Shown here piece by piece: positions 10,372-36,717 of a stretch of DNA of 64,000 bases. Position numbers and translations under genes: made by a program. The stretch is from an uncultured Candidatus Saccharibacteria bacterium (GTDB lineage Bacteria > Patescibacteriota > Saccharimonadia > Saccharimonadales > Saccharimonadaceae), in contig CAMVCL010000002.1 in the NCBI GenBank assembly GCA_947165975.1, forward strand, positions 4,987 to 68,986. Reading direction: 5' to 3'. The notes below the pieces were generated by a model. It was not told the DNA's origin and did not search any database. It saw only the letters and a list, made by a program, of their open reading frames with translations. Position 1 is the stretch's first letter; each line of letters opens with the position of its first letter.

Positions 10372-10451
10372 TTTAAGAGAATTTAAACGTAGGGGGTTGC
10401 ATTCGTTTTTGACATGTGCCTATAATAGCGCAACCTAAGATAGGAGACACT

Positions 10452-12206
10452 ATGTTAACCAAAAAACATCGTGTCATACATGTCAAAACACTCGCTAAAA
10501 AATACACGATTCCAATTAGAATAATGGCCTTAACATTGATCGTGCTATCAGGCGCTCTTAATATTTCGGCAAGAGAAGTCGCTGCAACTGGCTGCCCCGA
10601 TTTAAAAGTAATCTTTATTCGTGGTTCTGGTGGCAAACGCTACACTAGCAAAGATTATCTAACCTTTAAGCGCGCGATGGAACAAAAACTCAACACTAGC
10701 TCGCTTCAATACATTATAGATGATCTAGACTACCCTGCTGCTAGTATTGATATCAGTGAAGGACACTTGGATACTTTTATAGGTGCCTACATTGGAGGTG
10801 GAGAAGCTTATAAATTTGGCGATAGTGTTCACGCGGGCACTAAATCACTCATAAAAGCCATTAATGACAACAAATGCAAAGATACTAAATATGTTATAGC
10901 TGGTTATTCTCAAGGCACAATTGTGCTATTAGATGCACTCAACAGTATCAGTGCCAATAAGATCATTTTTGCTGCCACATTCGGCGATCCCAAGATATAT
11001 CTTCCCGAAGGTGCTGGTCTTGTTCCTAAAGCTTGTAGTGGCAAAAATTTATCTTCATATCGTATCCATGTTCCAGACTGCCGTGCCTACAAAGGTATGC
11101 TTGGAGCTAAAAGACCATACATTCCATCTAGTTATCAATATAAATATGGTACCTGGTGTAATAAAAAAGATATTCTTTGTAGTTCACGGTTTAGTATTAG
11201 CGACCACACGGCTTATGTAGAAGACGGCCTTTATGAGGATGCTTCGCGGTTTATTTTTGCTAAAGTCGCCAAAGCCTTTAACTTCAAAAATGAATATACT
11301 TCACCTCATGATACCGCTATCATTATTAATTCGACTTCATCAATTCCAAATAAGATCCCGCAGTTTAAAGTTGCGGTCTACGATCTGGCCAGTAGGACTT
11401 TTGAAGCGGGCGGTCGTGTTGCTCTTTACGACTATCATGGCAGTGCTAACTCTTTTACGCCCACAAAAAGATGCGACTTCTCATCTTGCACCCTAGCGGA
11501 CATCAAAGTTCACCTAGACGATATAGAAAATGATCTGGGCCCACAGTCCAACAATGCATTACTCTCTAACTCTTTTCAGGTCATGAGGCAACTCAATTGG
11601 AGGTTTGGTTCAACTAAATCGCTAGCGATCTTTACGGATGCGAACTACGACTCATCAGGCCTCGGCGGTGTTAAGTTTTATGATGTTCAAAAGCTCAGTA
11701 AGCAAATCGATCCTGTCAATTTCTATATTATGACTAATCCTGAAAATGTTGAAAATTATCAGTCGCTCGCTAAAGCTACGGATGGCCAGGTTTTTTCTTC
11801 CGAGAATGACTCGTCAATATTTGTGGATGCCATCATGTCTCGTTACGATAGTCTACCGCGAGTAGAGGAAGAATTTCCTGATGAAAGTTATGACCATAAT
11901 TATCCATCTTTACGAATTGATCAAATAGACAGGGAATCGAACACTTCCGCAAAAGTTTTTTTCACTTCAACTGGCAGCAAGACCATTGTCATTTTAAATG
12001 ACACGATTCTTGGTGTTACGAATTTAAATCATCTTACTCTCACAGATTTAAGAAATGACCATGAGAACACCCTCACTTTAGTGCCAATCTTGAACGATTA
12101 TCGCGGAGAACCCGTCTCAACCAAATTAAATTCCAAAGAAAACGAAATCGAGCCTTTTTCATTAAAAGGATTTATGCCTAAAGCACCCAATACTGGTAGG
12201 CAATAA
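10452..12206 (+). CDS. secreted cutinase-family serine esterase with a long C-terminal extension
   Basis: GCPDLKVIFIRGSGG, nucleophile elbow IAGYSQGT, FGDPK and SDHTAY are in cutinase order. An N-terminal signal/TM is present. AGGAGA SD precedes the ATG at 10452; the ORF track starts at 10416. Confidence 0.65.
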   Translation: MLTKKHRVIHVKTLAKKYTIPIRIMALTLIVLSGALNISAREVAATGCPDLKVIFIRGSGGKRYTSKDYLTFKRAMEQKLNTSSLQYIIDDLDYPAASIDISEGHLDTFIGAYIGGGEAYKFGDSVHAGTKSLIKAINDNKCKDTKYVIAGYSQGTIVLLDALNSISANKIIFAATFGDPKIYLPEGAGLVPKACSGKNLSSYRIHVPDCRAYKGMLGAKRPYIPSSYQYKYGTWCNKKDILCSSRFSISDHTAYVEDGLYEDASRFIFAKVAKAFNFKNEYTSPHDTAIIINSTSSIPNKIPQFKVAVYDLASRTFEAGGRVALYDYHGSANSFTPTKRCDFSSCTLADIKVHLDDIENDLGPQSNNALLSNSFQVMRQLNWRFGSTKSLAIFTDANYDSSGLGGVKFYDVQKLSKQIDPVNFYIMTNPENVENYQSLAKATDGQVFSSENDSSIFVDAIMSRYDSLPRVEEEFPDESYDHNYPSLRIDQIDRESNTSAKVFFTSTGSKTIVILNDTILGVTNLNHLTLTDLRNDHENTLTLVPILNDYRGEPVSTKLNSKENEIEPFSLKGFMPKAPNTGRQ

Positions 12207-15391: not shown

Positions 15392-17623
15392 ATGCCAGAC
15401 GACAACACCCAAACAACACCATCGATTCCGCCGGTTGATCCGACTGTGGCTGGTACTTCGGCACCAACTGAATCAGAATCCAATCCGATTACTGATTCGG
15501 CCCCTGAACCAACTCCGGCACCTGAACCCGTCCCAGAGCCTACTTCGGCCCCCGTCAGTTCTAGTGTTGTCGATCCAACTTTACCACCGCCCGATGACTC
15601 GGCATCTAAGCCGGCTCCGGTATCAGATAAGTCGTCTATCTATGCGGAAGTGACTAGCAAGATTGCCTCATCTAAAAATGTTTTAATTGCACTTTCTAGC
15701 GACCCATCTGTAGATGAGATGGCGGCCGCAATTGGTCTTCAGTTATTCCTTGATAAACTAGGCAAGCGTGCTACCGCGATTTATTCTGGTTCCACTCCAA
15801 ACGCGCTTGAATTTCTTAAACCAGAAGAAACTTTTGAGTCTACAGCTGACGCATTGCAGGATTTTGTCATTGCTCTTAATAAGGAAAAAGCTGACCATTT
15901 ACGCTATAAGCTGGATGGTGATTTTGTTAAGATTTATATTACTCCATACAAAACCAGAATAGCCGAAACTGATTTAGATTTTTCATATGGTGATTACAAT
16001 GTCGATCTCGTACTCGCATTAGACGTAGCAAACGGCATCGATCTTGATTCCGCCCTGCGTGAGCACGGTCGTATTATGCACGATGCTGTAATCATCAATA
16101 TTACGACAGGTAAACCAGGTAAATTTGGCGAAATTGAATGGAGCGATAAGTCTGCCAGCTCAGTATCAGAAATGATTGCAACCCTACTTTACAAAATTAG
16201 CGATGCAAAAATAGAAAAAGAGGAAGCTACCGCATTTCTCACTGGTATCGTCGCCGCCACCAACCGTTTTTCTAATTCCATGACTACATCCGATACAATG
16301 AAGATTGCATCCAAGCTTATGGAATCTGGTGCCAATCAACAGCTCGTTTCTAAGAATATTACTCCTGACGTTGATAACGAGATGGCAACCATAACTATGG
16401 CCACACCAGCTGGAGATTCGCTCGCCACACTAGAGACAGAACAAGAAGAAGTTGACCCGACTAAACTTGACATTCAACACGGCAATGAAAGTCCGACTGA
16501 CGAAGCTAAAGAGATTGATGATCCTATCACTGAAAAAAGCAGTTCTTTACTCGATGATTTAAAGGCTGCAGAAGCAAGTTTGGCTGGTGCGGGCGCCGAA
16601 GTCACACCAGAAGATAAGCAAACCGCCCTAAAAATCAATAATGGAGAAGAAGAAAAACCCTCCGACGACGACAAAGAGTCGGTTAGTCCAGAAGAATCTA
16701 AGATAGATAATGAAGAATCCAAGGTTGAGTCCAAAGATGAGAACACGATAAAATCTGACGAAAGTAAGCCTACAGAAAAAACAGAGACTTCTGCGGAAGA
16801 ATCCGAAGAAGATGCGCTTTCACTTTCGCTTAAAGAAGCTGCCGCTGAATTAACAAAAGAGGCTTCAAACGAAATCCCGGCTCCGGCTCCAGAACCAGTT
16901 CAAGAGCCTGCTCCGACGTCAGCTTCTGAGCCAGTTGCCGAAGCTCCAGCTGAAGCATCACAAGAAGAACCAGCCCCGGCTCCAGAACCAGCTCCAGTTC
17001 CAACGCCGGCTCCGACCCCAGCCCCAGCCCCGGCCCCGGCTCCAGAACCAGCTCCAGTTCCAACGCCGGTTCCCGAGCCAACCGCCCCAAAGTTTTTGGT
17101 AGAACCACTTCCAGAATCTGGAGAAGATGAGGGTTTATCGTCCGACAGTGAGCCAATACACTTAAATAGTCAAGAAAAAGTATTACAGCCTACTACCGAT
17201 TTATCAACTATCGGTACAGGTGAGCCAGGTGATAATAAATATGGTCAAATGCTTGAAGCTGCTCTTGAGGGTCTAAATAATGCAACTCCAACAATGCCTG
17301 CTGCAGCACCAGCTGCTAATCCAGCAGCTGCTAGCGCACCATCCGTGCCATCTAATCCAGAGATTAATGGTGTACCAGAAATGAATTATATGCCAATGCC
17401 AGGCGAAGAGATTCTGCCACCACCTCCGACTCCACCAATCAATATGGCAAATGTCACTGCGCCAAATCCTAGTGCCGCTCTACCACCTACTGAACCAATT
17501 CAGCCGGCCGGTCCCGCCCCAGAGCCCACTCCAGAACCATTAGGTGCTCAACCTGCTATGCAAGATCAGATATATACTCCACAAGCTGCTGATCCAGGCG
17601 CCTTCAAGATTCCTGGAATGTAA
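15392..17623 (+). CDS. NrnA-like DHH-domain protein with substituted catalytic motifs, flanked by Pro/Ala/Glu-rich disordered regions
   Basis: The core (approx. aa 95-320) follows DHH motif order: LIALSSDPSVDEMAAAIGL, LVLALDV, VIINITTG (where DHH is expected), GIVAATNRF. There is no DHHA1/GGGH. The termini are PAPEP-type low complexity. Confidence 0.55.
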   Translation: MPDDNTQTTPSIPPVDPTVAGTSAPTESESNPITDSAPEPTPAPEPVPEPTSAPVSSSVVDPTLPPPDDSASKPAPVSDKSSIYAEVTSKIASSKNVLIALSSDPSVDEMAAAIGLQLFLDKLGKRATAIYSGSTPNALEFLKPEETFESTADALQDFVIALNKEKADHLRYKLDGDFVKIYITPYKTRIAETDLDFSYGDYNVDLVLALDVANGIDLDSALREHGRIMHDAVIINITTGKPGKFGEIEWSDKSASSVSEMIATLLYKISDAKIEKEEATAFLTGIVAATNRFSNSMTTSDTMKIASKLMESGANQQLVSKNITPDVDNEMATITMATPAGDSLATLETEQEEVDPTKLDIQHGNESPTDEAKEIDDPITEKSSSLLDDLKAAEASLAGAGAEVTPEDKQTALKINNGEEEKPSDDDKESVSPEESKIDNEESKVESKDENTIKSDESKPTEKTETSAEESEEDALSLSLKEAAAELTKEASNEIPAPAPEPVQEPAPTSASEPVAEAPAEASQEEPAPAPEPAPVPTPAPTPAPAPAPAPEPAPVPTPVPEPTAPKFLVEPLPESGEDEGLSSDSEPIHLNSQEKVLQPTTDLSTIGTGEPGDNKYGQMLEAALEGLNNATPTMPAAAPAANPAAASAPSVPSNPEINGVPEMNYMPMPGEEILPPPPTPPINMANVTAPNPSAALPPTEPIQPAGPAPEPTPEPLGAQPAMQDQIYTPQAADPGAFKIPGM
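16974..17069 (+). repeat. 36-bp perfect direct repeat, two copies 60 bp apart, inside the Pro/Ala-rich coding region
   Basis: ccccggctccagaaccagctccagttccaacgccgg occurs at 16974..17009 and 17034..17069. Confidence 0.85.
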
Positions 17624-26928: not shown

Positions 26929-26957
26929 TTGACAAAATTAACAAAGTGTGCTACACT
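26929..26957 (+). promoter_or_regulatory. sigma-70 promoter TTGACA-17-TACACT with TGc extension
   Basis: Direct reading. It lies about 80 nt upstream of the 69-aa ORF. Confidence 0.6.
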
Positions 26958-27037: not shown

Positions 27038-27247
27038 ATGGAAGAAACTATCAATCTACCAAAACAAGTTATCGATTCTGAATGGAAAGATGACATAGAC
27101 TATGTACCATACGAAGACGAAGGAACGTACGTATCACCACAAGAAGTAAGAAAGACAACGATCGACAGAATCAAAAAATCGCCCATTAAACTAGCCATAA
27201 GGGGCATGGTAGATTGGGACAAAATTAAAGAAAATCTCTCAGCCTAA
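27038..27247 (+). CDS. hypothetical small acidic protein (69 aa)
   Basis: ORF with SD AAAGGAAAA and a promoter upstream. No recognisable family. Confidence 0.35.
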   Translation: MEETINLPKQVIDSEWKDDIDYVPYEDEGTYVSPQEVRKTTIDRIKKSPIKLAIRGMVDWDKIKENLSA

Positions 27248-27418: not shown

Positions 27419-27434
27419 AAACCATAAATTACCT

Positions 27435-27463
27435 AAAAAACCGAACACTATGTTCGGTTTTTT
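27435..27463 (+). terminator. intrinsic terminator (aaaaaaccgaac-actat-gttcggtttttt)
   Basis: 6-bp GC-containing stem extended by A/T pairing, followed by a T6 tail. Confidence 0.75.
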
Positions 27464-27508
27464 AGTGCAAAAAATCCCAAAATTTATTCAGAGATAAGCA
27501 TAAAAACA

Positions 27509-27537
27509 TTGACCAAAAAATAAGCTTATGTTAAACT
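27509..27537 (+). promoter_or_regulatory. sigma-70 promoter TTGACC-17-TAAACT with TGt extension
   Basis: Direct reading. It lies 47 nt upstream of cassette A. Confidence 0.55.
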
Positions 27538-27583: not shown

Positions 27584-27913
27584 ATGGACAACTATCTCAT
27601 AGATCGAGAAACTCTTGGTAAGTTTGTCGATGAACTTATTAAAAGAAAGGCTCTGCCAGTCAATACTCCAGAGGAGCTCAATAGCCTCAGGGAAGAATCT
27701 ATTAAGTCGCTAGACGACAAAATCGGCATGGCTATTTTCGGCAGCTTAACCGCCGAGCAGGATACTGAATTTAATCAACTACTTGATCGTGGTGATGCGA
27801 GCGAAAGTGAATTTGAAGATTTCTTCAATCGTATTGGTCTTGATGTTGAACAAAAGATTACCGACACAATGAACGCTTTCGGCGCAGAATTTTTAGGAGG
27901 TCAAAATGCCTAA
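27584..27913 (+). CDS. cassette A small helical protein (paralog of 31082..31456; DUF5663-like by recollection)
   Basis: 109 aa. Colinear with the 124-aa paralog (FVDELIKRK..IGMAIFGSLTAEQDTEFNQLL.. vs FIDGLMEEK..IDRSIIAELPDDKLEELTRAA..). 8-nt overlap with the next gene. Confidence 0.6.
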   Translation: MDNYLIDRETLGKFVDELIKRKALPVNTPEELNSLREESIKSLDDKIGMAIFGSLTAEQDTEFNQLLDRGDASESEFEDFFNRIGLDVEQKITDTMNAFGAEFLGGQNA

Positions 27914-29621
27914 TCCAGAAATAATGAGTTTTTCTAATAGTGAATCGACTGATCCATCCGCAGAACACATCGGAGAGGATCTAGGAACAGTCCAAGCTCG
28001 TGGTGCTATGGCAATGGATGTTGCCAAAGAACAAACTGGAGGCCAAATCTTTCAAAACTTAAGCAAAGAAGAATTTAATAGCTTCGATGTCAGTAAGCTG
28101 AGCAATGAGCAATTAGTGCAGGCTTATCATGAGGTAACAGCACTTAGAGCTCAAATTGAACAAGGTAGCTCCGCTCAGAACTCCGAAAATACACAGAATA
28201 TGAGCGCCACAGAAGTTGCTCAAAAAGTAGCCGAGCCTGAACCTACTCCACAGGAGCCAGAGATAATCGATTCAGAGAGAGCACGTAGTACCTTAGATAA
28301 AGCCAAGAAAAATCAATCAGCTAAAAGTTGGCTAACTAAGAAGACCATGGCAGTAGTAATCGCTGCATCACTTTTGGTTGGAGGAGCTATCGGCTATTAC
28401 GGAGCTGAAGCTAGCACTTCGTCAGCAGAATCAGGTGGACGTACAACGGTCGAAGACAATATCGACCAAGACGCTCTTGGCCAAGAGACTATTGAAAATA
28501 CTGAACTAACAGGTGAATTATCTAACGGCGTACACTATGATTATCGCGAATATGCAGACTACGACAATAAAACAAGCGAATATGCATTCGGCTACGATAA
28601 ATCAGAATTTTTCAATGACCGAGAAGCGACCGAAGATGCCTGGATGGAAATGGCAAATAAATCGCCAGAATACATCAGTTCATACATCGACGTTTTGACT
28701 GACGAAGAAAAAGCCGAGCTTGGTATCGACAATATGTCCACTAGTGAACTAGATGATTATCTAAGTAATGCGCAAAACATTGACGGCGGAGCAAAACAAC
28801 AAAAGATATTTGAAAAACTCAATCAAATTGCCCGCGACAAAGAGAACACACGCTATGAATTTTATTATGAGAACGATACGGAGTATTCTTACTATCATGT
28901 TTTCAATGACGAAAACAAAGACGGCAAATATTCGCCAGAAGAAATGCGTGTTTATTATTCCAAGGTTCCAAGAAATGGCGCCCCTCAAGTCGATGTGTAT
29001 CGTCTAATTAACGGGCAATGGACCAAAGTTATTGATCTGAACATCCAATGTGGTTTCCAGCCAAATCAAGAGACTGTGCCAGAAAACATGCAACTTATTC
29101 CAGACAATCCGGATACTGGTTCAGAAACGACTGGTTCCGAAGGTACCGGTTCCGAAGGTACTGGCTCCGAGGGTACTGGCTCCGAAGGTACTGGTTCTGA
29201 GGGTACTGGTAATGAAGGCACTGATATCAATCCAAAAGACCCCGATAACCTAATACGTATTGATCAAAACATTGACGAAAACATTAGTACCGACATTGGC
29301 ACCGAAAATATTAATCATAATCCAAATCCGGGTGTTTCTGAAGCAGATAAGACCAATAAACCATCAGGCGAAGAACACAAAGGGACAAAACCTGAGATCA
29401 AACAAAATGATTCGTCTAAGTCAGCCGAAAAAGTTCAGCCCCAAAAAACTGAGAATAGTCACAATCAAGATAAAGGCGGCAAAAATGATAAAGAATATAA
29501 ACCTGTTCAAAGTAAAGAAGAGGCTCAGAAAAAAGCTGACAGTTCAGCTACTGAGGTCAAAAATGCTCCAACTGATAAACAATCAGTTAGCAATGAATTA
29601 AAAGATCTAGGAATTGATTAA
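27906..29621 (+). CDS. cassette A large single-pass membrane/surface protein with (TGSEG)7 repeat and conserved C-terminal module
   Basis: 571 aa with a TM helix at MAVVIAASLLVGGAIGYYGA. GGAGG SD. The C-terminal 130 aa are colinear with the end of the 1320-aa protein. Confidence 0.7.
   Translation: MPNPEIMSFSNSESTDPSAEHIGEDLGTVQARGAMAMDVAKEQTGGQIFQNLSKEEFNSFDVSKLSNEQLVQAYHEVTALRAQIEQGSSAQNSENTQNMSATEVAQKVAEPEPTPQEPEIIDSERARSTLDKAKKNQSAKSWLTKKTMAVVIAASLLVGGAIGYYGAEASTSSAESGGRTTVEDNIDQDALGQETIENTELTGELSNGVHYDYREYADYDNKTSEYAFGYDKSEFFNDREATEDAWMEMANKSPEYISSYIDVLTDEEKAELGIDNMSTSELDDYLSNAQNIDGGAKQQKIFEKLNQIARDKENTRYEFYYENDTEYSYYHVFNDENKDGKYSPEEMRVYYSKVPRNGAPQVDVYRLINGQWTKVIDLNIQCGFQPNQETVPENMQLIPDNPDTGSETTGSEGTGSEGTGSEGTGSEGTGSEGTGNEGTDINPKDPDNLIRIDQNIDENISTDIGTENINHNPNPGVSEADKTNKPSGEEHKGTKPEIKQNDSSKSAEKVQPQKTENSHNQDKGGKNDKEYKPVQSKEEAQKKADSSATEVKNAPTDKQSVSNELKDLGID
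29115..29219 (+). repeat. 7 x 15-bp in-frame tandem repeat encoding T-G-S/N-E-G
   Basis: Units start at 29115, 29130, ... 29205 and are nearly identical (actggttccgaaggt variants). Confidence 0.9.
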
Positions 29622-29641
29622 TGGTAGGAGAAAGGAAGACC

Positions 29642-31015
29642 ATGAAAAATCACAAAACTAAACTTAAAACGCTAAGCGTTCTTGCTACGGCGGGTCTTAG
29701 CTTGGTTTCCGTTGCTTCAGTCTCTGCTTGGGGACCAGAACGCACCACATTCACGATGGAGAAGCCGGCTACTTATCCGACCTTTAACTCTATCACTAAC
29801 AACCCAACCATTGGCGATGAAAGGGATTTCGTTAGGGTGGGAGAAATTAACGCTAAGGTTACCGACCTGAAAAACGAAGTTGAAATTGTACCAGGAAGAC
29901 AATACTTAGTTTATGTCTATTTCCATAACAATGCTTCATCGACATTTAACGATTCTGCACACAATAATTCAGGTGTTGCACTAAGAACACATATGTCTAC
30001 AGCATTTTCAACCGTGTTGACTCCCAGTAACAAGGGAAAAATTTCTGCAACCATTACAGCTGACAATAGTAATCCAGCTTCAGTATGGGACGAAGCTTAC
30101 ATGACTACCAAGACCGAAAAAGTTCTCATGCATTACGTCGCAGGCTCAGCCAAAATTTATAACGATTGGAAGGCCAATGGTTCAGTCATGCCTTCAACGC
30201 TATTTACCGAAGAAGGAGCCTTACTTGGTCTCAATAATCTAAACGGTATCATTCCAGGTTGTGAAGAGTATCACGGAGTAGTATCATATGTCCTCCAAGC
30301 CGAAGAGTTAGGTGGCTCAATTGATAAATCTGTTTCAAAAGATGGTGAAAAGTTTGGTGAAAGCATCAACCTTGCTCCAGGCGAAGAAGCCACTTACAGA
30401 TTAACCATCAGAAACACCGGCGACGTTGCTTTGACCAATGCTACCATAAAAGATGTTCTACCAGCTGGTCTTACATTAGTCCCCGGCAGTGTAAAACTTA
30501 CCGCTAACGACTCAAAGACCCCAGAATCATTATCAGACAATATCTTTGGAACTGGCTATAATCTTGGTACCATCGGTACTGGCAACACAGTCTACATTAC
30601 TTATAAAGTAAAGGCAGGCGCCGACTTTGATTGCAAAGGTACGGAATTAACTAATAAGGCTACTTTGACCTACGACAGTGACCAAGAAAGTGGCGAAACC
30701 AAAGAAGACACAACGACGATCACTGTCAAAAAGACCGATTGTGAAGAACCAAATGAGCCGTTAGACGATTGCGAATCTAACCCTGGCTTACCAGAATGTA
30801 AAGAAAAGAACTGTAAGACTAATCCAGAGATGGAAGGATGCCAAGAGCTACCAAATACTGGTCCTGTTGAAATCATTATGGCAGCAGTAATCATTATCGG
30901 TATTGGCGGCGGCGGGTACTATCTATACAGAACGCAAAAGACTCTCAAAACTGTTGAAAGTGGAGTTTCCGGTAAAGAACCAAAAGTTAAAGACGGTTCT
31001 GACGAACTTAAATAA
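29642..31015 (+). CDS. LPNTG-anchored cell-surface protein with DUF11-type repeat domain and Cys-rich stalk
   Basis: Signal peptide, GEEATYRLTIRNTGDVALTNATIKDVLPAGLTLVPGSV, and C-terminal LPNTG + hydrophobic helix + YRTQK. SD AGGAGAAAGGAAG precedes the ATG at 29642. Confidence 0.8.
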   Translation: MKNHKTKLKTLSVLATAGLSLVSVASVSAWGPERTTFTMEKPATYPTFNSITNNPTIGDERDFVRVGEINAKVTDLKNEVEIVPGRQYLVYVYFHNNASSTFNDSAHNNSGVALRTHMSTAFSTVLTPSNKGKISATITADNSNPASVWDEAYMTTKTEKVLMHYVAGSAKIYNDWKANGSVMPSTLFTEEGALLGLNNLNGIIPGCEEYHGVVSYVLQAEELGGSIDKSVSKDGEKFGESINLAPGEEATYRLTIRNTGDVALTNATIKDVLPAGLTLVPGSVKLTANDSKTPESLSDNIFGTGYNLGTIGTGNTVYITYKVKAGADFDCKGTELTNKATLTYDSDQESGETKEDTTTITVKKTDCEEPNEPLDDCESNPGLPECKEKNCKTNPEMEGCQELPNTGPVEIIMAAVIIIGIGGGGYYLYRTQKTLKTVESGVSGKEPKVKDGSDELK

Positions 31016-31025
31016 TAACCGTTAA

Positions 31026-31062
31026 ATCTACCCTCAGACCTAATTAGGGTTTGAGGGTAGAT
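31026..31062 (+). terminator. long hairpin (atctaccctca-15 nt-tgagggtagat), weak T-tail
   Basis: 11-bp perfect stem directly after the LPNTG gene. Confidence 0.5.
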
Positions 31063-31081
31063 ATAAGAAAGGGAAACTACA

Positions 31082-31456
31082 ATGGAGCAAACAATAAATA
31101 ACGACAATCCATCAGAAAAGCTTAACGATGATGAAGTCATCGATCTTTTTATTGATGGTTTAATGGAGGAAAAAGGTACGGCTGCTCCAACTGCAGAAGT
31201 TCACCAAGACATCCACGACAATCTTAAAAATCAGCTTCTCACCGAAATAGATCGCTCAATTATTGCCGAATTACCAGATGATAAACTAGAAGAACTAACT
31301 CGCGCTGCGGCAAGTGAAGGCGAGCTAAGTCCAGAAGTTGTAGCAAAGGCTGTTGAAGCATCCAATATTAATGTTACGGAAATTACTGGTGTTACAATGC
31401 AACGTTTTCGAGATCTTTATCTAAATAATGCAAATCAACAAAAGACGGAGGAATAA
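31082..31456 (+). CDS. cassette B small helical protein (paralog of 27584..27913)
   Basis: 124 aa, colinear with the cassette A small protein. It lies 3 nt before the next gene. Confidence 0.6.
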   Translation: MEQTINNDNPSEKLNDDEVIDLFIDGLMEEKGTAAPTAEVHQDIHDNLKNQLLTEIDRSIIAELPDDKLEELTRAAASEGELSPEVVAKAVEASNINVTEITGVTMQRFRDLYLNNANQQKTEE

Positions 31457-31459
31457 TCC

Positions 31460-34400
31460 GTGAGCGAATCTGCACTAGAACAAAAAAGTGGACAAGAAAT
31501 CAATCCATCTTCTGAAGAATGGCAAAAGCTTGGTCATGAAGTCCCCAAAAGTGACACGGAGACTACCGACGGGGGATCATCTAATCCAGAACAACCTACA
31601 CAATCATCGGAACAAGTTGTCGACTCATTATCCAAAGAACAGCTTGAATACATTACCGAAAAATTAGGGAAACGTGGCCGTATCGCACTCATTGCGGCAG
31701 AACTTTCGAAAGAAGATCGCGATAATATTGTTCGTGAAGCCATTGACATGAAAGTCAAAGAGACTTCAAAAGAGCATCCTCTTATTACTAATTTCCCAAT
31801 TATTGGTAGCTTAGTCAAAGCAGGGTATGCTGCTAGGCATCGCGATCGGGCCCGAGCTGCTATTAAAGAAGAAGGAAACTTATCAGCGGCATTTACATCT
31901 TTGAATTTAGATCCTACTAAAAGCCGCATTATGAACAGCAACTCGGAAAACATCGAAGATCGTGCTTTTCAGGTATTAGAAAATGCCGGCTACTCCGAAG
32001 AAAACCAAATTGATCGTGCTAGTTCTAGGCTTAACCAGAATGAAATAGTTGAAAAAATGGATGATGCATCCCAGGCGGCAGTGAAACAGGCGCTTAACGA
32101 ATACTATTCTGGATTAAAAGGTGGAGAAAAATCTAAAGATGAACTCGCCAAAACATTTGACGAGCAGATTAAGGATACCTTTAAAGGCAAAGAATCTATT
32201 TCGTTTGATTCTATCAATAGGCAAAGGGAAGCACTTGAAAGCCTAGTCGATGATCCCAATATTCAAGCCAGCCAAGTTAAGACATACATCGATGAGCATC
32301 TGACATTATATAAAGCCTCCATGAAAGAAAGTATCAATACTACTCAAAAGGTAGACGGTATAATAAATGCGGTGGACAAAGCCGGGTTAATCGGCGGAGT
32401 TGCTTATGCGCTGATCGGTCGTGAAGCACGTTCTAAATTGCGTGGCGCACTTGGTACTATTGGCGGAGCGGGCGCCGTAGGTGCAGCAGTAGGTGCAGTT
32501 GCAGGTGCTATTCGTGGCGTCGAAAAAGCTAATGTTAAATTATCTAATGCAGAGATAAATGCAGTTACGGCCACCGATTCACCAGAAAGAATCGAAACAA
32601 ATGACCAAGAAGGTTCGGAAGCAGCCTCTCCGAATCCTGAAAAAGCTAAGCAAAAGGAAAACCTTTTTGCTATAATTAATCGCTACAAGAGTATCGCGAC
32701 CGGTGAAGAAAAATACTTAGCTAATATTGAAAAACTACGCGATCGTAAAGACGCTAACGATTTGATTGATAATTTCGATCAATTGATCAATCAATTTAAT
32801 GCAGAGGATAATGATTCCAGAAATAATCTCGTCGACGCCTATGCAGAAGTCATAGCACGAGGTCGCTTTTCGAACGAGAATCGCGTAGATTTGATCAGAT
32901 ATAAAGATAACCGTGCCGCGCTCGAACAGAAACTTTCGGAGGCCGAAAAGAAATTATATGGAGAGAATTCTGAAAATGTTGACAATCTTTTAAATGATGA
33001 AGACTCTGCCCTAAATAAGTTGATTCAAGAAAAAATGGAACAACTTAGTAATAACTATAATGAAGCCAATAAACTTCGTACCAAATTCCTCATCCGTTCT
33101 GCCTTAGTGGATGCTACGGCAGGTGCATTAATAGGTGCTAGCGCAGGTTCATTATTCCATCTTGTCTCTTCGCACTTACCCGAGGGGGGCATTGCTGGGG
33201 CTCTTGGCCTTGAAACAGCCGAAACTGACAATCTTCAAGGCAGTCAAGTCGAATTAGTTGAAGATCCCGATGGAGGATATACAGTTATGCTAGGCGATGA
33301 AGAACTAATAGGCAAAGGAGAGAGTTCTGGCATTGAATTCGATGACAGTGGCGCACTCACCAATGAATCCAAAGAGATGCTTGAAAAGGCAGGGATTGAT
33401 GTTAAAGAAAACATTACTGAACATACTTTTGAAAATGCCACCAAACAAGTTGATCTACGTGAATACTTCAACCCAGAGAATAAAGATGCAAATAATCTCA
33501 CTGAAATCTCAAGTCGTAGTTGGATCACTGACGCTAGCGGCCGTGATCAGATTATGGTTGGCAATACCCATATGGATGGAGAAGGCAACATCATCATGCA
33601 AGTCGCCCCTACAGCCAACTCGGATGTTACTCTCGAAGACATGAAAATGGTTCTAACACCAGGCAATGGTAATATTGATACTGCTATAACCGTTGATGTA
33701 AACCCAGATGGAACTATCGAGATCCCTGCTGGCTCTCCGGCCGCCAGTTTCTTTGACGGTGAAAACTTCCAAGGTGGTTATGCCGAAATAGCCCGTGAAG
33801 GAGCAGATGGCCATCTAGATGTCTATACTACTATGGGCGATGGTAGGCCAAGCATCAATACTCTTACTATAGATAATCCAGACGCAACTTACAACACCTA
33901 TGATTATTCATTTACTATCAACGATCAATCATATGAAGTTTCTGTTCCGGAAAATATTACGGCTGCTGCCCGCATGGAGGCACTAAATGGTATTGAGTCC
34001 CTTAAGGGTACCGGTGAACCAATTGGTTACGAAGCGAACGGAGATATTACTGGACTAACCACTACTAGCGGCGAGACAGTTGAAGTCGAGCACTTTGAAC
34101 ATCACGGTGGCTATAGTGATACGACAGACAGCTATTTTGGTGAAAAAGATGGAGTTTATAATAGTGGCGCATCGGTAATTCGTTCAATGGTCGGAGAAGA
34201 AGGGAAGGGGTTAAGCTCCGGTGAAGTTGACCGTATCTTCCTGGAAAAAGTAAATAGTGGCGAGATCTCTGAGGGTGATGTCGTAGAGGAATATCTTAAG
34301 ACCATTGGTAATTCACCAGAAGCTCTTACTACTACCCGCGCAATGATGGGTGGCTTTGAAATGGATTTGAATGGTGATGGTGTTGCGGAATTGATAGATA

Positions 34401-35422
34401 CACAAGATGAGATTAATATTGCCGCAGATATTTTGAGTCGAGATCCAGAAGCATACGACAATTTCGTCAACGACACTTATGAAGTGTTCTATGAGAAGAT
34501 TGAGGGTGGCTCCATTCGCTTTGTTGACTATACGCAAGAACAATATCAATTTACGACGTGGGGCGTATTAGACAAAGATACCAACAATATCTTGCAACGA
34601 CTAGGTACAGTTGGTGATCGCCAAACTGACGGCGTTGGCATAGTCTTTGTTGACAAAGATGGTAACTCAATTTACGACAAAGAAATTGCGAGAAATCTCT
34701 GGCATTTACCAGAAGGTTATAATCTAAATTATATTGCTGATCGTCTCAACTGCGATCAAAAAACTGGTAACGGCTTCTTTACAGAACAATCAACCGGCAA
34801 TGAAGGTACAGGCGAAGAAGGCACTGGTGACGAAGGTACCGGCAATGAGGGTACTGGTAATGAAGGAACTGGTGACGAAGGTACCGGCAATGAGGGTACT
34901 GGTAATGAAGGCACTGGTGACGAAGGTACCGGCAATGAGGGTACTGGCAACGAAGGTACAGGCGAAGAAGGTACTGGTAACGAAGGAACCGGAGAAGAAG
35001 GTACTGGCGACGAAGGCACCGATATTGAACCAAAGGATTATGAGAACATGGAACGCATCGATAAAAACATTGATAATGATATCAAAGACGATATCGGCAC
35101 CGAAGAAATTAGACATAATCCTAATCCTGGTGTAGACGAGAGAGACTTGACCGAGAAACCTTCATCTGATGAATACCAAGGCACAGAAGTTAAAACAACC
35201 CCATCAGAAGCATCCACGAAGGCAGAACCAGTACAAGAAAAAGTCAGCCAGGATAATAACTACAGCTCAGACAGAGGCGGCAGTAATTCTCAAGAATATT
35301 CCCCAGTTAAAGAAAATAGCGCAGCTCAAGAAAAAGCCGATAGTAGCTCTACTCCAGTAAAAGAAGCTCCAGTCAAACAAGAAGAAGTTAAAACAGAGCT
35401 AGAAGACTTGGGGATTGAATAG
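31460..35422 (+). CDS. cassette B giant membrane/surface protein (1320 aa) with (TGxEG)15 repeat and conserved C-terminal module
   Basis: GTG start 8 nt after GGAGG. Gly/Ala-rich hydrophobic segments (GGAGAVGAAVGAVAGAI; ATAGALIGASAGSLFHLV). The C-terminus is colinear with the 571-aa protein. Confidence 0.75.
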   Translation: MSESALEQKSGQEINPSSEEWQKLGHEVPKSDTETTDGGSSNPEQPTQSSEQVVDSLSKEQLEYITEKLGKRGRIALIAAELSKEDRDNIVREAIDMKVKETSKEHPLITNFPIIGSLVKAGYAARHRDRARAAIKEEGNLSAAFTSLNLDPTKSRIMNSNSENIEDRAFQVLENAGYSEENQIDRASSRLNQNEIVEKMDDASQAAVKQALNEYYSGLKGGEKSKDELAKTFDEQIKDTFKGKESISFDSINRQREALESLVDDPNIQASQVKTYIDEHLTLYKASMKESINTTQKVDGIINAVDKAGLIGGVAYALIGREARSKLRGALGTIGGAGAVGAAVGAVAGAIRGVEKANVKLSNAEINAVTATDSPERIETNDQEGSEAASPNPEKAKQKENLFAIINRYKSIATGEEKYLANIEKLRDRKDANDLIDNFDQLINQFNAEDNDSRNNLVDAYAEVIARGRFSNENRVDLIRYKDNRAALEQKLSEAEKKLYGENSENVDNLLNDEDSALNKLIQEKMEQLSNNYNEANKLRTKFLIRSALVDATAGALIGASAGSLFHLVSSHLPEGGIAGALGLETAETDNLQGSQVELVEDPDGGYTVMLGDEELIGKGESSGIEFDDSGALTNESKEMLEKAGIDVKENITEHTFENATKQVDLREYFNPENKDANNLTEISSRSWITDASGRDQIMVGNTHMDGEGNIIMQVAPTANSDVTLEDMKMVLTPGNGNIDTAITVDVNPDGTIEIPAGSPAASFFDGENFQGGYAEIAREGADGHLDVYTTMGDGRPSINTLTIDNPDATYNTYDYSFTINDQSYEVSVPENITAAARMEALNGIESLKGTGEPIGYEANGDITGLTTTSGETVEVEHFEHHGGYSDTTDSYFGEKDGVYNSGASVIRSMVGEEGKGLSSGEVDRIFLEKVNSGEISEGDVVEEYLKTIGNSPEALTTTRAMMGGFEMDLNGDGVAELIDTQDEINIAADILSRDPEAYDNFVNDTYEVFYEKIEGGSIRFVDYTQEQYQFTTWGVLDKDTNNILQRLGTVGDRQTDGVGIVFVDKDGNSIYDKEIARNLWHLPEGYNLNYIADRLNCDQKTGNGFFTEQSTGNEGTGEEGTGDEGTGNEGTGNEGTGDEGTGNEGTGNEGTGDEGTGNEGTGNEGTGEEGTGNEGTGEEGTGDEGTDIEPKDYENMERIDKNIDNDIKDDIGTEEIRHNPNPGVDERDLTEKPSSDEYQGTEVKTTPSEASTKAEPVQEKVSQDNNYSSDRGGSNSQEYSPVKENSAAQEKADSSSTPVKEAPVKQEEVKTELEDLGIE
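34793..35017 (+). repeat. 15 x 15-bp in-frame tandem repeat encoding T-G-N/D/E-E-G, with a 45-bp higher-order unit x3
   Basis: Units run from 34793. TGDEG-TGNEG-TGNEG triplets repeat almost perfectly at the DNA level. Confidence 0.9.
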
Positions 35423-35430
35423 GTGACAAA

Positions 35431-36717
35431 GTGACGATTTCTTCAAATCAAAAACATCGCACTCTTACTGTAATGGAAGGCAGAGAAGAAAACCGCCATA
35501 TGGTTGAAGGTTTTGCTGACGCAGCTAAACGAAAAGGTTGGAATTTTTGTCAATTATTTGGCATAAATTCTGACCGAGTTGCCCGTTTTGATTTTGCTGA
35601 TACCCCGCTTGACTATGTGATTTTTCGTGAGCTATCCAAAAATAATTATCACGAAGCTGAACGGATCATGTACTGGCTTAAACAAAACCACAAAGTCTGC
35701 ATTAACGTAGATGTAGCCGGCAGGCGTATGTCTACGTCAGACAAACATTTTCAACAAGGTTTGTTTTTAATGGACCCATTTTTAAAAAAATATGCCCTAC
35801 CCACATTCGAAGCCAAGCATAAAGCCAACGTACTGTCATACATTGAAGCAAATCGTGTGCATTATCCTATAGTGCTTAAAGATCGTCGTGGAACAGCAGG
35901 GAAAAACATTACACTGATAAGTGCCGCTGAAGATTTAGATGATATCAAAGATTTTAGGAACCTACTGATTGAACAATATATCAAACCAGAATGCGACTAT
36001 CGTGTATTTGTGATCGGCGGTGTAGCTGTGGGGACAATGCGTAAAATTGGCGATGAACAAAATCCTGGTGACTTCGTTTCCTGGAGTGCCGGACGTCAAA
36101 AAAACAAAGAAGAGGATCAAGAAACCCTTAATCTCTTGGCTGAAATCGCAACCAGGGCAGCGGCCGTTTCAAAACTTGAATATGCCGGTGTTGATATTAT
36201 CAAAGAAGCCGAGACGGGTAACTATTACCTCCTAGAGACCAATATTGCTGCCGGCTGGCCAAATTTCACGCCAATCACGCATATTAATATTCCAGATTTA
36301 GTTTTGGATTGGTTCGAAGACATCGACGAAGGCAAAGAAGAATCCATTAGTAAAGCGGTCGAAAACTATATTAGCCACCGTAAGAACTACCTCCCAACCT
36401 ATATTCAGGATAGTTATGAGCAAATTTTATCAGGACTACCCGGCGCTACTGAGCCATATCGAGAAAAGTTTTCAAACTATCCAAACCAATATCTTTATGA
36501 CGCAGGCAGAATATTTGAACGATTAGAAGATGCTTATCAAAAAATCACTGAGCAAAATGAGGACGGAAATATCTATAAGGACCTTATTCAAGAGATAAAA
36601 TCCATGCCTCTTTCATGGGCAGGGAATTATATTGGTCCAGAGGTTGGGACTATGCATGATGGAGCTATCCTCTCGGCCCTTTACCTCTATATACTTCACA
36701 AAATCGACAAAATATGA
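35431..36717 (+). CDS. RimK-like ATP-grasp ligase with extended C-terminal domain
   Basis: YPIVLKDRRGTAGKNITLI, LIEQYIKPECDYRVFVIGGVAVGTMRK, YAGVDIIKEAETGNYYLLETNIAAGW. Starts 8 nt after the giant gene (GTG). Confidence 0.7.
   Translation: MTISSNQKHRTLTVMEGREENRHMVEGFADAAKRKGWNFCQLFGINSDRVARFDFADTPLDYVIFRELSKNNYHEAERIMYWLKQNHKVCINVDVAGRRMSTSDKHFQQGLFLMDPFLKKYALPTFEAKHKANVLSYIEANRVHYPIVLKDRRGTAGKNITLISAAEDLDDIKDFRNLLIEQYIKPECDYRVFVIGGVAVGTMRKIGDEQNPGDFVSWSAGRQKNKEEDQETLNLLAEIATRAAAVSKLEYAGVDIIKEAETGNYYLLETNIAAGWPNFTPITHINIPDLVLDWFEDIDEGKEESISKAVENYISHRKNYLPTYIQDSYEQILSGLPGATEPYREKFSNYPNQYLYDAGRIFERLEDAYQKITEQNEDGNIYKDLIQEIKSMPLSWAGNYIGPEVGTMHDGAILSALYLYILHKIDKI

What the first reader, a model, noticed from the sequence alone, without database searches (positions are those of the whole stretch)
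27584..35422. Two paralogous, translationally coupled cassettes (small helical protein + giant membrane/surface protein) flanking an LPNTG protein
Cassette A is 27584..27913 (109 aa) plus 27906..29621 (571 aa). Cassette B is 31082..31456 (124 aa) plus 31460..35422 (1320 aa).

The small proteins are colinear homologs: ..FVDELIKRK...IGMAIFGSLTAEQDTEFNQLL...FEDFFNRIGLDVEQKITDTMNAFGAEFL versus ..FIDGLMEEK...IDRSIIAELPDDKLEELTRAA...VAKAVEASNINVTEITGVTMQRFRDLYL. Each overlaps or abuts its large partner (8-nt overlap in A, 3-nt gap in B), with a GGAGG inside its own 3' end.

The large proteins share one architecture. There is an N-terminal soluble region, hydrophobic segment(s), a divergent middle, a Cys-containing junction, a (T-G-x-E-G)n tandem repeat, and a ~130-aa conserved acidic C-terminal module. 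I cannot assign any of the four to a characterised family; the small ones remind me of the CPR-restricted DUF5663.

Duplicated and diverging surface cassettes next to a wall-anchored protein fit a host-attachment or host-range module of an epibiotic bacterium, with the small protein as chaperone or adaptor.
Basis: partly seen in the sequence, partly recalled or inferred. Interest (0 to 1): 0.72.

Follow-up and report, generated by a model that had tools for sequence, protein, structure and literature searches.

The report
Swappable surface protein with matched anchor
A gut Saccharibacteria (TM7) genome carries two copies of an uncharacterised gene set (a small cytoplasmic partner plus a membrane-anchored surface protein) next to one wall-anchored protein, and comparison with about 50 relatives points to a modular surface complex with an exchangeable outer domain, a candidate determinant of how these epibiotic bacteria interact with other cells.

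Summary
The two small proteins look unrelated by BLASTP (E=3) but are homologous at profile level (hhalign 97.5%, E=6e-12). sA is a Pfam DUF5663 member and sB a divergent relative. The two large proteins share only a (T-G-x-E-G)n repeat plus a ~130-aa C-terminal module (56% identity, E=1e-52); the rest is architecture, not homology.

About 55 related loci, all rumen or gut Candidatus Saccharibacteria (Nanosyncoccus-like), show a conserved triad at one chromosomal slot between ileS and rplU/parAB: DUF5663 gene, bitopic large protein, then a CLIPPER/DUF11 LPxTG protein. The small gene's stop usually overlaps the large gene's start by 8 nt.

Two new findings:
- The body of LA is replaced wholesale between close relatives, while its flanks stay 70-82% identical in DNA.
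- The C-terminal tail type of the large protein matches the ectodomain type of the neighbouring CLIPPER protein one-to-one, independent of phylogeny. This implies docking.

No sequence or fold search links the large proteins to any characterised family. A nearly invariant Lys/Glu/Tyr set plus a terminal Cys-x-Gln hints at covalent chemistry. A host-attachment role is plausible but unproven. Verdict: real, uncharacterised, moderately to highly interesting.

The parts
27509..27537 (+). Promoter-like site (TTGACC-17-TAAACT with TG) upstream of sA; likely start of the sA-LA-CLIPPER-sB-LB transcription unit
   Evidence: Consensus scan. It lies just after the hairpin terminator at 27433-27465. No convincing + strand terminator was found inside the five-gene block. 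Consensus match only, not proof.
27584..27913 (+). sA: 109-aa acidic helical cytoplasmic protein, DUF5663 member
   Evidence: PF18908 25.0 bits against the gathering score of 23.7. 169 homologues at 58-94% identity, nearly all pre-annotated PF18908. No hydrophobic segment.
27906..29621 (+). LA: 571-aa bitopic (N-in/C-out) surface protein. Its start overlaps the sA stop by 8 nt. Layout: N-terminal MPNPE motif, TM at aa 146-168, ectodomain about aa 196-396, then linker repeat and C-module
   Evidence: The AlphaFold2 model has pLDDT >90 for aa 200-400 only.
28491..29093 (+). LA ectodomain (aa 196-396). Alpha+beta fold, nearly invariant K222/Y213/E255/Y260, an EF-hand-like loop D335-E346 (28908-28943), and terminal C382-G-F-Q385 (Cys codon 29049-29051)
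   Evidence: The profile finds 285 representatives (E<=1e-3) among 1.84 billion proteins, all with the same architecture. Residue conservation over 199 sequences. Cys context. No significant PDB fold match. The stretch 27921-29114 has no DNA similarity to the closest relatives although the flanks do.
29114..29223 (+). LA (T-G-S-E-G)n linker: 15-nt tandem repeat, about 6.5 copies. This is the point where DNA homology with relatives resumes
   Evidence: TRF; blastn breakpoints at 29114-29144.
29223..29618 (+). LA C-terminal module (aa 440-571), ending ..LKDLGID
   Evidence: 56% identical to the LB C-terminus. Only LA and LB carry it in the window. Its presence co-varies with the CLIPPER ectodomain type.
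29621..31015 (+). CLIPPER/DUF11 protein with a signal peptide, an N-terminal domain of unknown type, a CLIPPER Ig-like domain (aa ~250-365), a Cys-rich stalk, LPNTG (30848-30862), a TM segment and a long conserved cytoplasmic tail. The probable true start is Met8 at 29642
   Evidence: PF01345 39.3 bits, TIGR01451 54 bits, LPXTG_anchor 15.3 against 15.9. Hydropathy. Tail conservation. A gap of 19-21 nt in relatives fits the Met8 start.
31082..31456 (+). sB: 124-aa acidic helical cytoplasmic protein, a divergent DUF5663-like paralogue of sA
   Evidence: hhalign 97.5%, E=6e-12. HMM cross-hits. No direct Pfam hit.
31460..35422 (+). LB: 1320-aa surface protein. Layout: about 545-aa cytoplasmic helical region including a Gly-zipper hairpin (aa 301-354), TM at aa 548-566 (33101-33157), a beta-rich domain at aa ~597-845, a helical/Ca-loop domain at aa ~900-1100 (D969-D980 loop, 34364-34399), then C1098-D-Q (34751-34753)
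   Evidence: Eleven full-length homologues at 40-69% identity. No Pfam, PDB or Foldseek match.
34793..35021 (+). LB (T-G-x-E-G)n linker: 15-nt unit, about 14.7 copies
   Evidence: TRF.
35015..35419 (+). LB C-terminal module (aa 1186-1320), ending ..LEDLGIE

Best explanation
The locus encodes a lineage-specific, three-component cell-envelope complex of Nanosyncoccus-like Saccharibacteria. In this genome the first two components are duplicated (A and B) and share one copy of the third.

Proposed mechanism:
1. The five genes are transcribed together. Each small gene is translationally coupled to its large gene (sequence shown; coupling inferred).
2. The small DUF5663-type protein stays in the cytoplasm and binds the cytoplasmic N-terminal part of its own large protein. 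sA pairs with the MP[NS]PE-type N-terminus and sB with the LB-type N-terminus. It acts as a holdase, targeting factor or adaptor (inferred).
3. The large protein inserts N-in/C-out through one signal-anchor helix. It exports a Ca-binding ectodomain, a flexible acidic (T-G-x-E-G)n tether and a C-terminal tail module (inferred from sequence).
4. The C-terminal tail docks on the ectodomain of the adjacent signal-peptide/LPxTG CLIPPER protein. This is a type-matched pair, analogous to cohesin-dockerin. It ties the membrane-anchored protein to the wall-anchored stalk (inferred from co-variation).
5. The ectodomain supplies ligand specificity. In LA it is exchanged as a cassette between strains by recombination between the conserved 5' end and the repeat/C-module. 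The most likely ligand is on another cell, the bacterial host of the epibiont (speculative).
6. The nearly invariant Lys-Glu-Tyr set and terminal Cys-x-Gln suggest an autocatalytic cross-link or covalent-binding chemistry (speculative).
For: Conserved triad and coupling:
- About 55 loci from rumen or gut Saccharibacteria have [DUF5663][bitopic large][CLIPPER-LPxTG] between ileS and rplU-parAB.
- The small/large overlap is -8 nt in about 30 of 45 loci and -11 to -20 in most others.
- A-type and B-type occupy the same slot in different genomes. Six loci, including the window, have A-CLIPPER-B.

Topology:
- The large proteins have no signal peptide, and 151 of 163 family representatives have a TM before the ectodomain.
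- K/R-rich segments precede the TM.
- EF-hand/dockerin-like loops occur in both ectodomains.

Docking:
- CLIPPER ectodomain identity is 0.80 (0.70-0.96) between genomes that both have the C-module, against 0.45 otherwise. IleRS identity is equal (0.80) in both groups.
- CLIPPER-ectodomain clusters map one-to-one on tail types: DLGI, ERA..F.NGDF, NPS.D..QGF, AAVENGDF.
- The rule holds within the B type. L005's LB lacks the module and has a different CLIPPER (0.39), whereas L002 and L004 have the module (0.78).
- Only the CLIPPER ectodomain differs between types; the stalk, LPNTG, TM and tail do not.

Cassette exchange:
- DNA of the window is 70-82% identical to L012, L001 and L010 everywhere except 27921-29114. 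Homology resumes at the repeat.
- Ectodomain subtypes assort independently of tail/CLIPPER types.

Cytoplasmic partner:
- sA and sB are acidic, helical and lack a TM.
- In Southlakia, DUF5663 genes are Patescibacteria-enriched. One is essential by Tn-seq. One resembles trigger-factor C-domain/LTXXQ chaperone folds (PMC10633639 Tables S1 and S2).

Conserved chemistry:
- K222 is present in 190 of 192 sequences, and Y213, E255 and Y260 are highly conserved.
- The last Cys sits at the domain end in 154 of 163 representatives, with Q/N at +2 or +3 in 152 of 163.
Against: - No experiment and no structural model of any complex. AlphaFold-Multimer was not available.
- Tail/CLIPPER co-variation could partly reflect physical linkage, since the 3' end of the large gene abuts the CLIPPER gene in single-cassette loci. 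The only unlinked cases (LB in the six dual loci) come from one lineage.
- The ectodomain begins only about 30-40 residues after the TM. It may therefore lie beneath the wall rather than at the cell surface, which sits awkwardly with direct host binding.
- LB is not hypervariable.
- The C-module is modelled with low confidence (pLDDT 35-65).
- No sortase gene was looked for outside the ORFs scanned. The CLIPPER protein's long conserved cytoplasmic tail is atypical for a sortase substrate.
- The Southlakia DUF5663 genes lie in a different context, downstream of a 767-aa protein with no CLIPPER, so their phenotype may not transfer. A DUF11 protein there (SEML1_0427) is non-essential.
Confidence: 0.55

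Rival explanations
1. Pure adhesin / host-range module. LA and LB are the host-binding adhesins themselves, the small proteins are their export chaperones, and the LPNTG protein is an independent neighbouring adhesin.
For: - Predicted outward topology and Ca-binding loops.
- Wholesale replacement of the LA ectodomain between close relatives, and 285 representatives each <50% identical, fit diversifying selection at a cell-cell interface.
- CLIPPER domains typify stalks of fibrillar adhesins (bioRxiv 10.1101/2025.04.25.650565).
- Tn-seq in Southlakia shows that several surface adhesins are needed for epibiotic growth (PMC10633639).
Against: - The CLIPPER protein is not independent: its ectodomain type matches the large protein's tail type.
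- The variable domain is membrane-proximal. The distal element is the conserved C-module, not the variable part.
- No known adhesin fold or domain was found.
- Hypervariability could equally reflect phage or predator pressure.
Confidence: 0.25
2. Envelope-architecture or assembly role. The large protein is a membrane-to-wall tether, or a dedicated platform that holds, folds or positions the CLIPPER protein (or polymerises it). The variable domain is under phage-driven rather than host-driven selection.
For: - The C-tail/CLIPPER match.
- A fixed chromosomal position among division and partition genes (ftsA-ftsZ ... parAB) in all genomes.
- Both LA and LB keep a C-module compatible with the single CLIPPER.
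- The conserved cytoplasmic tail of CLIPPER and the cytoplasmic domains of LA/LB allow a transmembrane assembly.
Against: - The slot is empty of this module in Southlakia (ileS, NTP transferase, rplU), so it is not a core envelope function of the phylum.
- A purely structural tether would not be expected to swap its ectodomain between near relatives.
Confidence: 0.15
3. Polymorphic toxin/immunity or contact-dependent inhibition-like system: variable large protein plus small cognate protein.
For: A small gene is tightly coupled to a large, strain-variable secreted or membrane protein.
Against: - The small protein is upstream and conserved (42-90% identity), while the variable region changes completely. 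For example, in L010 sA is 90% identical but LA only 41% globally, with no DNA similarity in the body.
- The variable part is internal, not C-terminal.
- No toxin domain was found in Pfam.
- No relatives in phage or plasmid collections.
Confidence: 0.03
4. Transmembrane signalling pair (sigma/anti-sigma-like, or sensor plus cytoplasmic effector). The ectodomain senses a ligand and the small protein is released or sequestered in the cytoplasm.
For: The gene arrangement (a small cytoplasmic protein overlapping a bitopic protein with a variable ectodomain) resembles ECF sigma/anti-sigma operons.
Against: - DUF5663 is 109 aa and strongly acidic (22% D+E against 10% K+R).
- It has no sigma, HTH or other DNA-binding match.
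- This model does not explain the C-module/CLIPPER match.
Confidence: 0.05

Closest known systems
[quoted passage not shown]
   Same: - The middle gene is a signal-peptide/LPxTG protein with a CLIPPER (DUF11) stalk domain.
- The module is extracellular and Ca-associated, and it varies between strains.
- A conserved Cys followed by Gln, together with invariant Lys/Glu/Tyr, recalls autocatalytic cross-link chemistry.
   Different: - The variable head is on a separate polypeptide that is anchored by an N-terminal TM helix, not by sortase.
- The Cys lies at the C-terminal end of the domain, not in an N-terminal [YFL]C-phi-zeta strand.
- There is no TQxx-phi-W motif.
- Foldseek to TED structures is not significant (E=0.29, probability 0.08).
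Cohesin-dockerin type-specific docking (cellulosomes)
   Same: - A C-terminal module after a flexible linker pairs with a beta-sandwich-containing, wall-attached partner.
- Several mutually exclusive specificity types exist.
- DxNxDG Ca-loop motifs are present in the ectodomains.
   Different: - No sequence or fold homology to dockerin or cohesin was detected.
- The Ca-like loops are in the ectodomains, not in the C-module.
- The interaction itself is inferred, not shown.
Secretion-chaperone/substrate gene pairs (for example T3SS class I chaperones or T7SS EspG-type): a small acidic cytoplasmic protein encoded next to and coupled with its client
   Same: - A small, acidic, helical, signal-less protein is encoded immediately upstream and translationally coupled.
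- Partner types match the client's N-terminal types (sA with LA-type, sB with LB-type).
   Different: - No homology to those chaperone families.
- No dedicated secretion system lies in the neighbourhood.
- The client is a membrane-anchored protein presumably handled by Sec/YidC.
Southlakia epibionticum SEML1_0161-0163 locus (PMC10633639, Tables S1 and S2)
   Same: - DUF5663 genes sit adjacent to a large uncharacterised protein in a Saccharibacterium.
- DUF5663 is flagged there as a Patescibacteria-enriched core family.
- SEML1_0162 and SEML1_0161 are called essential (GD/ES/ES).
   Different: - The order is reversed: the large protein comes first, followed by two DUF5663 genes.
- The chromosomal site is different (after infB).
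- There is no adjacent CLIPPER gene.

Membership tests
DUF5663 (Pfam PF18908) | Score at or above the Pfam gathering threshold (23.7 bits) against the family HMM | tested here: met
   sA scores 25.0 bits, E=3e-5, covering profile positions 3-84 of 84. 169 homologues are almost all pre-annotated PF18908.
DUF5663 (Pfam PF18908), applied to sB | Score at or above the gathering threshold | tested here: not met
   No PF18908 hit for sB or its five orthologues scanned, even at E<=10. Profile-profile comparison nonetheless relates the sB family to the sA family (97.5%, E=6e-12). sB is a divergent sister family, not a Pfam-defined member.
CLIPPER / DUF11 (PF01345; TIGR01451) | HMM match above the curated cut-off | tested here: met
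   PF01345 39.3 bits against 24.6; TIGR01451 54 bits against 24.
CLIPPER / DUF11 | Intramolecular Lys-Asn isopeptide triad (present in some but not all members) | not tested
   No structural model of the CLIPPER protein was made.
Sortase substrates (LPXTG cell-wall anchor, TIGR01167) | N-terminal signal peptide, LPXTG, hydrophobic segment and a short basic tail | tested here: inconclusive
   A signal-peptide-like N-terminus, LPNTG and a TM are present. The HMM scores 15.3 bits against a 15.9 cut-off. The tail is 40-50 aa and conserved, which is atypical.
Sortase substrates | A sortase encoded in the genome | not tested
   Only 10 other ORFs of the window were scanned, and none is a sortase. 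The rest of the genome is not available.
Bacterial thioester domains (TED, class I/II) | TED fold (six-stranded barrel plus three-helix bundle) | tested here: not met
   Foldseek of the LA model against PDB: TIE86 TED E=0.29, probability 0.08, TM 0.15; no hit at E<=0.001.
Bacterial thioester domains (TED) | Cys in an N-terminal [YFL]C-phi-zeta motif, Gln about 150-200 aa downstream, and a TQxx-phi-W motif (PMC6194298) | tested here: not met
   The only conserved Cys is at the C-terminal end of the domain, with Gln at +2 or +3. No conserved TQxx-phi-W appears among the top conserved columns.
alpha2-macroglobulin / C3-type thioester | A CGEQ (or CxEQ) motif inside an alpha/alpha-toroid thioester domain | tested here: not met
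   One subtype has C-G-[FYMWL]-Q and others have C-x-Q. There is no A2M/TED Pfam hit and the predicted fold is alpha+beta. The motif resemblance is only a lead.
Polymorphic toxin / CDI systems | A variable C-terminal toxin domain with a co-varying immunity gene immediately downstream | tested here: not met
   The variable part is internal, the small gene is upstream, and it does not co-vary with the variable part.
VirB8-like / Gram-positive T4SS bitopic proteins | An NTF2-like ectodomain with a significant fold or HMM match, in a T4SS gene cluster | tested here: not met
   Only weak NTF2-like Foldseek hits (E>=0.4). TrbL_3 scores 12 bits against a 23 cut-off. The neighbours are housekeeping genes.
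ECF sigma / anti-sigma pairs | The small protein has sigma-70 regions 2 and 4 | tested here: not met
   No sigma or HTH family hit in Pfam or NCBIfam. The protein is 109 aa and acidic.

The most novel reading that the evidence does not exclude
The ~200-aa ectodomain family is a new kind of autocatalytic covalent domain. Its signature is invariant Lys222, Glu255 and Tyr213/260 with a terminal Cys-x-Gln or Cys-Gly-x-Gln, and its chemistry would be an internal thioester or isopeptide outside the known TED/CnaA/CnaB folds. In this reading an epibiotic bacterium uses it to bond covalently to its host cell. The C-terminal tail/CLIPPER pairs form a cohesin-dockerin-like specificity code that mounts exchangeable heads on a wall-anchored stalk.
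Probability: 0.15. Interest if true: 0.88.

Novelty: new variant of a known kind. Interest (0 to 1): 0.62.

Why it matters
Saccharibacteria and other Patescibacteria live attached to host bacteria. Apart from type IV pili and a few predicted adhesins, the molecules that decide which cell they bind are unknown. This locus offers a concrete, testable candidate:
- a surface protein whose outer domain is swapped between otherwise near-identical strains;
- a partner protein whose type is matched to the surface protein's tail;
- a cytoplasmic partner from DUF5663, a Patescibacteria-enriched family of unknown function that has an essential member in the one Saccharibacterium with Tn-seq data.

It gives DUF5663 its first consistent genomic partner. 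It defines an unannotated ectodomain family (at least 285 clusters at 50% identity) with a sharp conserved-residue signature. It also predicts specific protein-protein pairs that can be tested with AlphaFold-Multimer or pull-downs.

Tried and rejected
1. Rosetta-stone fusion. P0003 looked like an sB+LB fusion in the alignment. The DNA of L050 has a TAG stop between the genes that the source pipeline read as Gln, so it is an artefact. The small/large spacing in B-type loci is not consistently in frame, so readthrough is not supported.

2. Homology of the LA and LB ectodomains. The full-length profile alignment extended upstream of the repeat. A direct test of LB 850-1112 against the LA-ectodomain family gave 1.5% probability. 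Rejected as unproven.

3. Known folds and families:
   - Pfam, NCBIfam and PDB sequence and profile searches found nothing.
   - Foldseek against PDB and BFVD gave nothing at E<=0.001.
   - G3P and designed-helical-bundle hits are compositional (the Gly/Ser/Glu linker and heptads).
   - Per-member Pfam scans of long family members found no accessory domains.

4. Mobile-element origin. No match in the phage or plasmid collections. The neighbours are housekeeping genes.

5. Concerted evolution of the two C-modules within a genome. Not seen: A-B within a genome is about 0.52-0.57, against 0.72-0.83 for orthologous A-A or B-B pairs between the closest relatives, with window LB vs L001/L012 LB at only 0.49-0.53.

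6. T4SS link. Suggested by weak TrbL_3 and CD1107-like hits, all below threshold, and there are no T4SS genes nearby.

7. Window contig. The look-up of the exact contig through P0132 failed.

8. Literature. No paper in the library mentions DUF5663.

Full report
**1. What is in the sequence**

The junction sequences show an 8-nt sA/LA overlap (AAT GCC TAA over ATG CCT AAT) with GGAGG 5 nt upstream. sB and LB are separated by 3 nt, with GGAGG 8 nt upstream of the GTG. The LA stop and the first possible start of the LPNTG gene share one base (TAATG). Met8 at 29642 is the more likely start, because relatives have a 19-21 nt gap there.

A promoter-like site (27509-27537) follows a strong hairpin terminator (27433-27465). 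No convincing + strand terminator interrupts the five genes. These are consensus matches only.

**2. Are the cassettes paralogous?**

The small proteins are not similar by BLASTP (E=3.1). A profile built only from sA relatives finds sB at E=8e-10, and the reverse search gives E=1e-5, with no other hit among the 602 ORFs of the window. hhalign of the two families gives 97.5% probability, E=6e-12, over 107 colinear columns.

sA passes Pfam's DUF5663 gathering score (25.0 against 23.7 bits). sB and its orthologues do not match the Pfam model. sB is therefore a divergent sister of DUF5663.

The large proteins share only the (T-G-x-E-G)n repeat and the C-terminal module (56% identity over 172 aa, E=1e-52). 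TRF reports 6.5 and 14.7 copies of a 15-nt unit. The rest is a common architecture rather than detectable homology: LB 850-1112 against the LA-ectodomain family gives 1.5% probability.

Both proteins lack a signal peptide. Both have a hydrophobic helix preceded by K/R-rich sequence (LA 146-168, LB 548-566). Both have a single Cys at the end of the folded ectodomain.

**3. Organism and context**

Homologues and related loci all come from Candidatus Saccharibacteria. Many are labelled Candidatus Nanosyncoccus, and most are from yak, goat, sheep or cattle gut. The neighbours are housekeeping genes: ftsA, ftsZ, nrdR, mscS and ileS upstream; a RimK-like ATP-grasp gene, rplU, parA, parB and lepB downstream.

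In Southlakia epibionticum the same backbone (ileS, rplU, parAB, lepB) carries only an NTP-transferase gene in this slot (PMC10633639 Table S1). The module is therefore a lineage-specific insert in a conserved backbone.

No relatives exist in the phage or plasmid collections.

**4. The pairing is conserved, and it is a triad**

In about 55 loci the DUF5663-type gene is followed by a large gene and then by a CLIPPER/DUF11 LPxTG gene.

- Forty species-representative genomes carry the A type. In these the large protein is 420-800 aa with one TM helix. The overlap with the small gene is 8 nt in about 30 of 45 loci.
- Four loci carry only the B type, in the order sB-LB-CLIPPER.
- Six loci carry both types in the order A-CLIPPER-B: the window, L001, L012, L050, L051 and L052.

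L010, the closest A-only relative, lacks exactly window 31022-35443, which is cassette B.

**5. A swappable body**

At the DNA level the window is 70-82% identical to L012, L001 and L010 across the whole region except 27921-29114, the body of LA. Homology stops a few codons into LA and resumes at the tandem repeat.

In protein terms, against L010, sA is 90% identical and CLIPPER 87%, but LA is only 41% globally.

LA-type ectodomains fall into at least three deeply divergent subtypes that still align along their length. A profile of this domain finds 285 representatives (239 at E<=1e-10) among 1.84 billion cluster representatives, all of similar size and layout. None has an accessory Pfam domain.

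LB, by contrast, is colinear and 66-69% identical among close relatives.

**6. A matched tail and anchor**

The C-terminal tails of the large proteins come in discrete types: ..L.DLGI[NDE] (the C-module of the window), ..ERA..F.NGDF, ..NPS.D..QGF, ..AAVENGDF and a few singletons.

Clustering the CLIPPER ectodomains at 60% identity gives groups that coincide with these tail types. IleRS identity is equal (mean 0.80) in both comparisons, yet CLIPPER ectodomain identity is 0.80 between genomes that both have the C-module and 0.45 otherwise.

The rule crosses the A/B divide. L002 and L004 (B type, with the module) have window-type CLIPPER (0.78). L005 (B type, different tail) does not (0.39).

Only the ectodomain of CLIPPER (aa ~60-390) differs between types. 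The Cys-rich stalk, LPNTG, TM and cytoplasmic tail are conserved in all. Ectodomain subtypes of the large protein assort independently of tail/CLIPPER types.

The simplest reading is that the tail docks on the CLIPPER ectodomain. Linkage of adjacent DNA is the main caveat.

**7. Structure and conserved residues**

The AlphaFold2 model of LA (21-sequence alignment) is confident only for aa 200-400 (pLDDT >90). That region is a helical subdomain followed by a six-stranded sheet. The C-module is modelled at pLDDT 35-65 with three short helices.

The model of LB(1-1110) gives moderately confident helical cytoplasmic regions, a beta-rich domain (597-845) and a helical domain (900-1020).

Foldseek finds nothing significant in PDB or BFVD. 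The best E-values are 0.13, 0.32 and 0.097, from weak NTF2-like, TED and FnIII-like matches. Profile searches of PDB and per-member Pfam scans are empty.

Over 199 family sequences the most conserved ectodomain residues are K222 (190 of 192), Y213, E255, G208, G370, G273 and Y260.

In 154 of 163 representatives the last Cys sits at the end of the domain. Gln or Asn follows at +2 or +3 in 152 of them (C-[MLIEN]-Q-V or C-G-[FY]-Q-P-N). LB has N-C-[DI]-Q.

This set recalls autocatalytic cross-links, but the defining features of thioester domains are not met. Those features are an N-terminal Cys motif, a distant Gln, a TQxx-phi-W motif and the TED fold (PMC6194298). The idea stays a lead.

EF-hand/dockerin-like loops (LA D335-E346 DENKDGKYSPEE; LB D969-D980 DLNGDGVAELID) fit an extracellular location. 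One 4165-aa representative matched the LA-loop region of the profile 24 times.

**8. The small protein**

sA and sB are acidic (22% D+E), helical and have no hydrophobic segment. They match their partners by type: sA with MP[NS]PE-type N-termini (95 of 163 representatives) and sB with LB-type N-termini. Part of the MP[NS] conservation is forced by the overlapping reading frames.

No paper in the library mentions DUF5663. The supplementary tables of PMC10633639 list two DUF5663 genes in Southlakia:

- SEML1_0162 is a core, Patescibacteria-enriched gene called GD/ES/ES, the same call pattern as dnaA.
- SEML1_0163 is called NE/GD/GD. Its model resembles trigger-factor C-terminal and LTXXQ (Spy-like) folds.

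Both lie just downstream of an essential 767-aa hypothetical protein. That supports a chaperone or adaptor reading by analogy only. The context differs and orthology was not tested.

**9. Interpretation**

The best-supported model is a three-part envelope complex with these components:

- a cytoplasmic DUF5663 partner;
- a bitopic surface protein with an exchangeable Ca-binding ectodomain, a flexible acidic tether and a docking tail;
- a type-matched CLIPPER LPxTG protein.

The window carries two large/small pairs that share one CLIPPER.

What the complex binds is unknown. A ligand on the epibiont's host cell is the most attractive guess, given the lifestyle and the cassette exchange. Against this, the membrane-proximal position of the variable domain and the lack of any adhesin fold keep confidence moderate. 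Rivals are envelope tethering or CLIPPER assembly, phage-driven variation, signalling, and toxin/immunity. The last is disfavoured because the small protein does not co-vary with the variable part.

**10. Things that did not hold up**

The apparent sB-LB fusion (P0003) is a gene-calling artefact: there is a TAG in the DNA. There is no concerted evolution between the two C-modules within a genome. The weak T4SS-like hits are below threshold and lack context.

**11. Verdict**

The module is real, conserved and uncharacterised. It is best filed as a new variant of Gram-positive-type surface-protein loci, with two features not described before: cassette exchange of the ectodomain between conserved flanks, and a tail-to-CLIPPER specificity code. 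Interest 0.62.

Noticed in passing
window 27038-27247 (+), with 26929-26957 and 27433-27465: A 69-aa ORF with its own strong promoter-like site (TTGACA-17-TACACT) and a 15-bp hairpin terminator. It is conserved at the same position, between ileS and the DUF5663 gene, in about 40 related loci, including one B-only locus. It has no Pfam match.
   Followed up: partly
window 35431-36717 (+): A RimK-like ATP-grasp gene (428 aa; RimK domain at aa 130-294) lies 8 nt after LB. It follows the cassette in some relatives (L001, L004, L010) but is absent in others (L002, L006, L008). Whether it modifies the acidic C-termini (..DLGID / ..DLGIE) is unknown.
   Followed up: partly
window 30863-31015 (C-terminus of the LPNTG protein): After LPNTG and the TM helix there is a 40-50 aa conserved cytoplasmic tail (YYLYRT.KTLKTVE..VSGK; many relatives end in DSSQKPDNMVK). 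This is far longer than the short basic tail of ordinary sortase sorting signals.
   Followed up: partly
L050 6080-6200: A public protein record (P0003) fuses the sB-like and LB-like genes because the source pipeline translated an in-frame TAG as Gln. The DNA has a stop codon, so the fusion is an artefact.
   Followed up: yes
window 10416-12206 (+): A 596-aa protein with a cutinase domain (PF01083, E=1e-18). A cutinase gene also lies upstream of ileS in L008/L009. It could be a secreted esterase relevant to life on Actinobacteria.
   Followed up: no
window 15392-17623 (+): A 743-aa Pro/Ala/Glu-rich protein with no Pfam match, in the most GC-rich stretch of the window (GC 0.466 at 16-18 kb).
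   Followed up: no
window 31016-31081: The 66-nt spacer between the CLIPPER gene and sB contains a short inverted repeat (CCCTCA..TGAGGG) without a T-run. In L010 the sequence from about 31022 to 35443 (cassette B) is absent, so this spacer marks one edge of the indel.
   Followed up: partly
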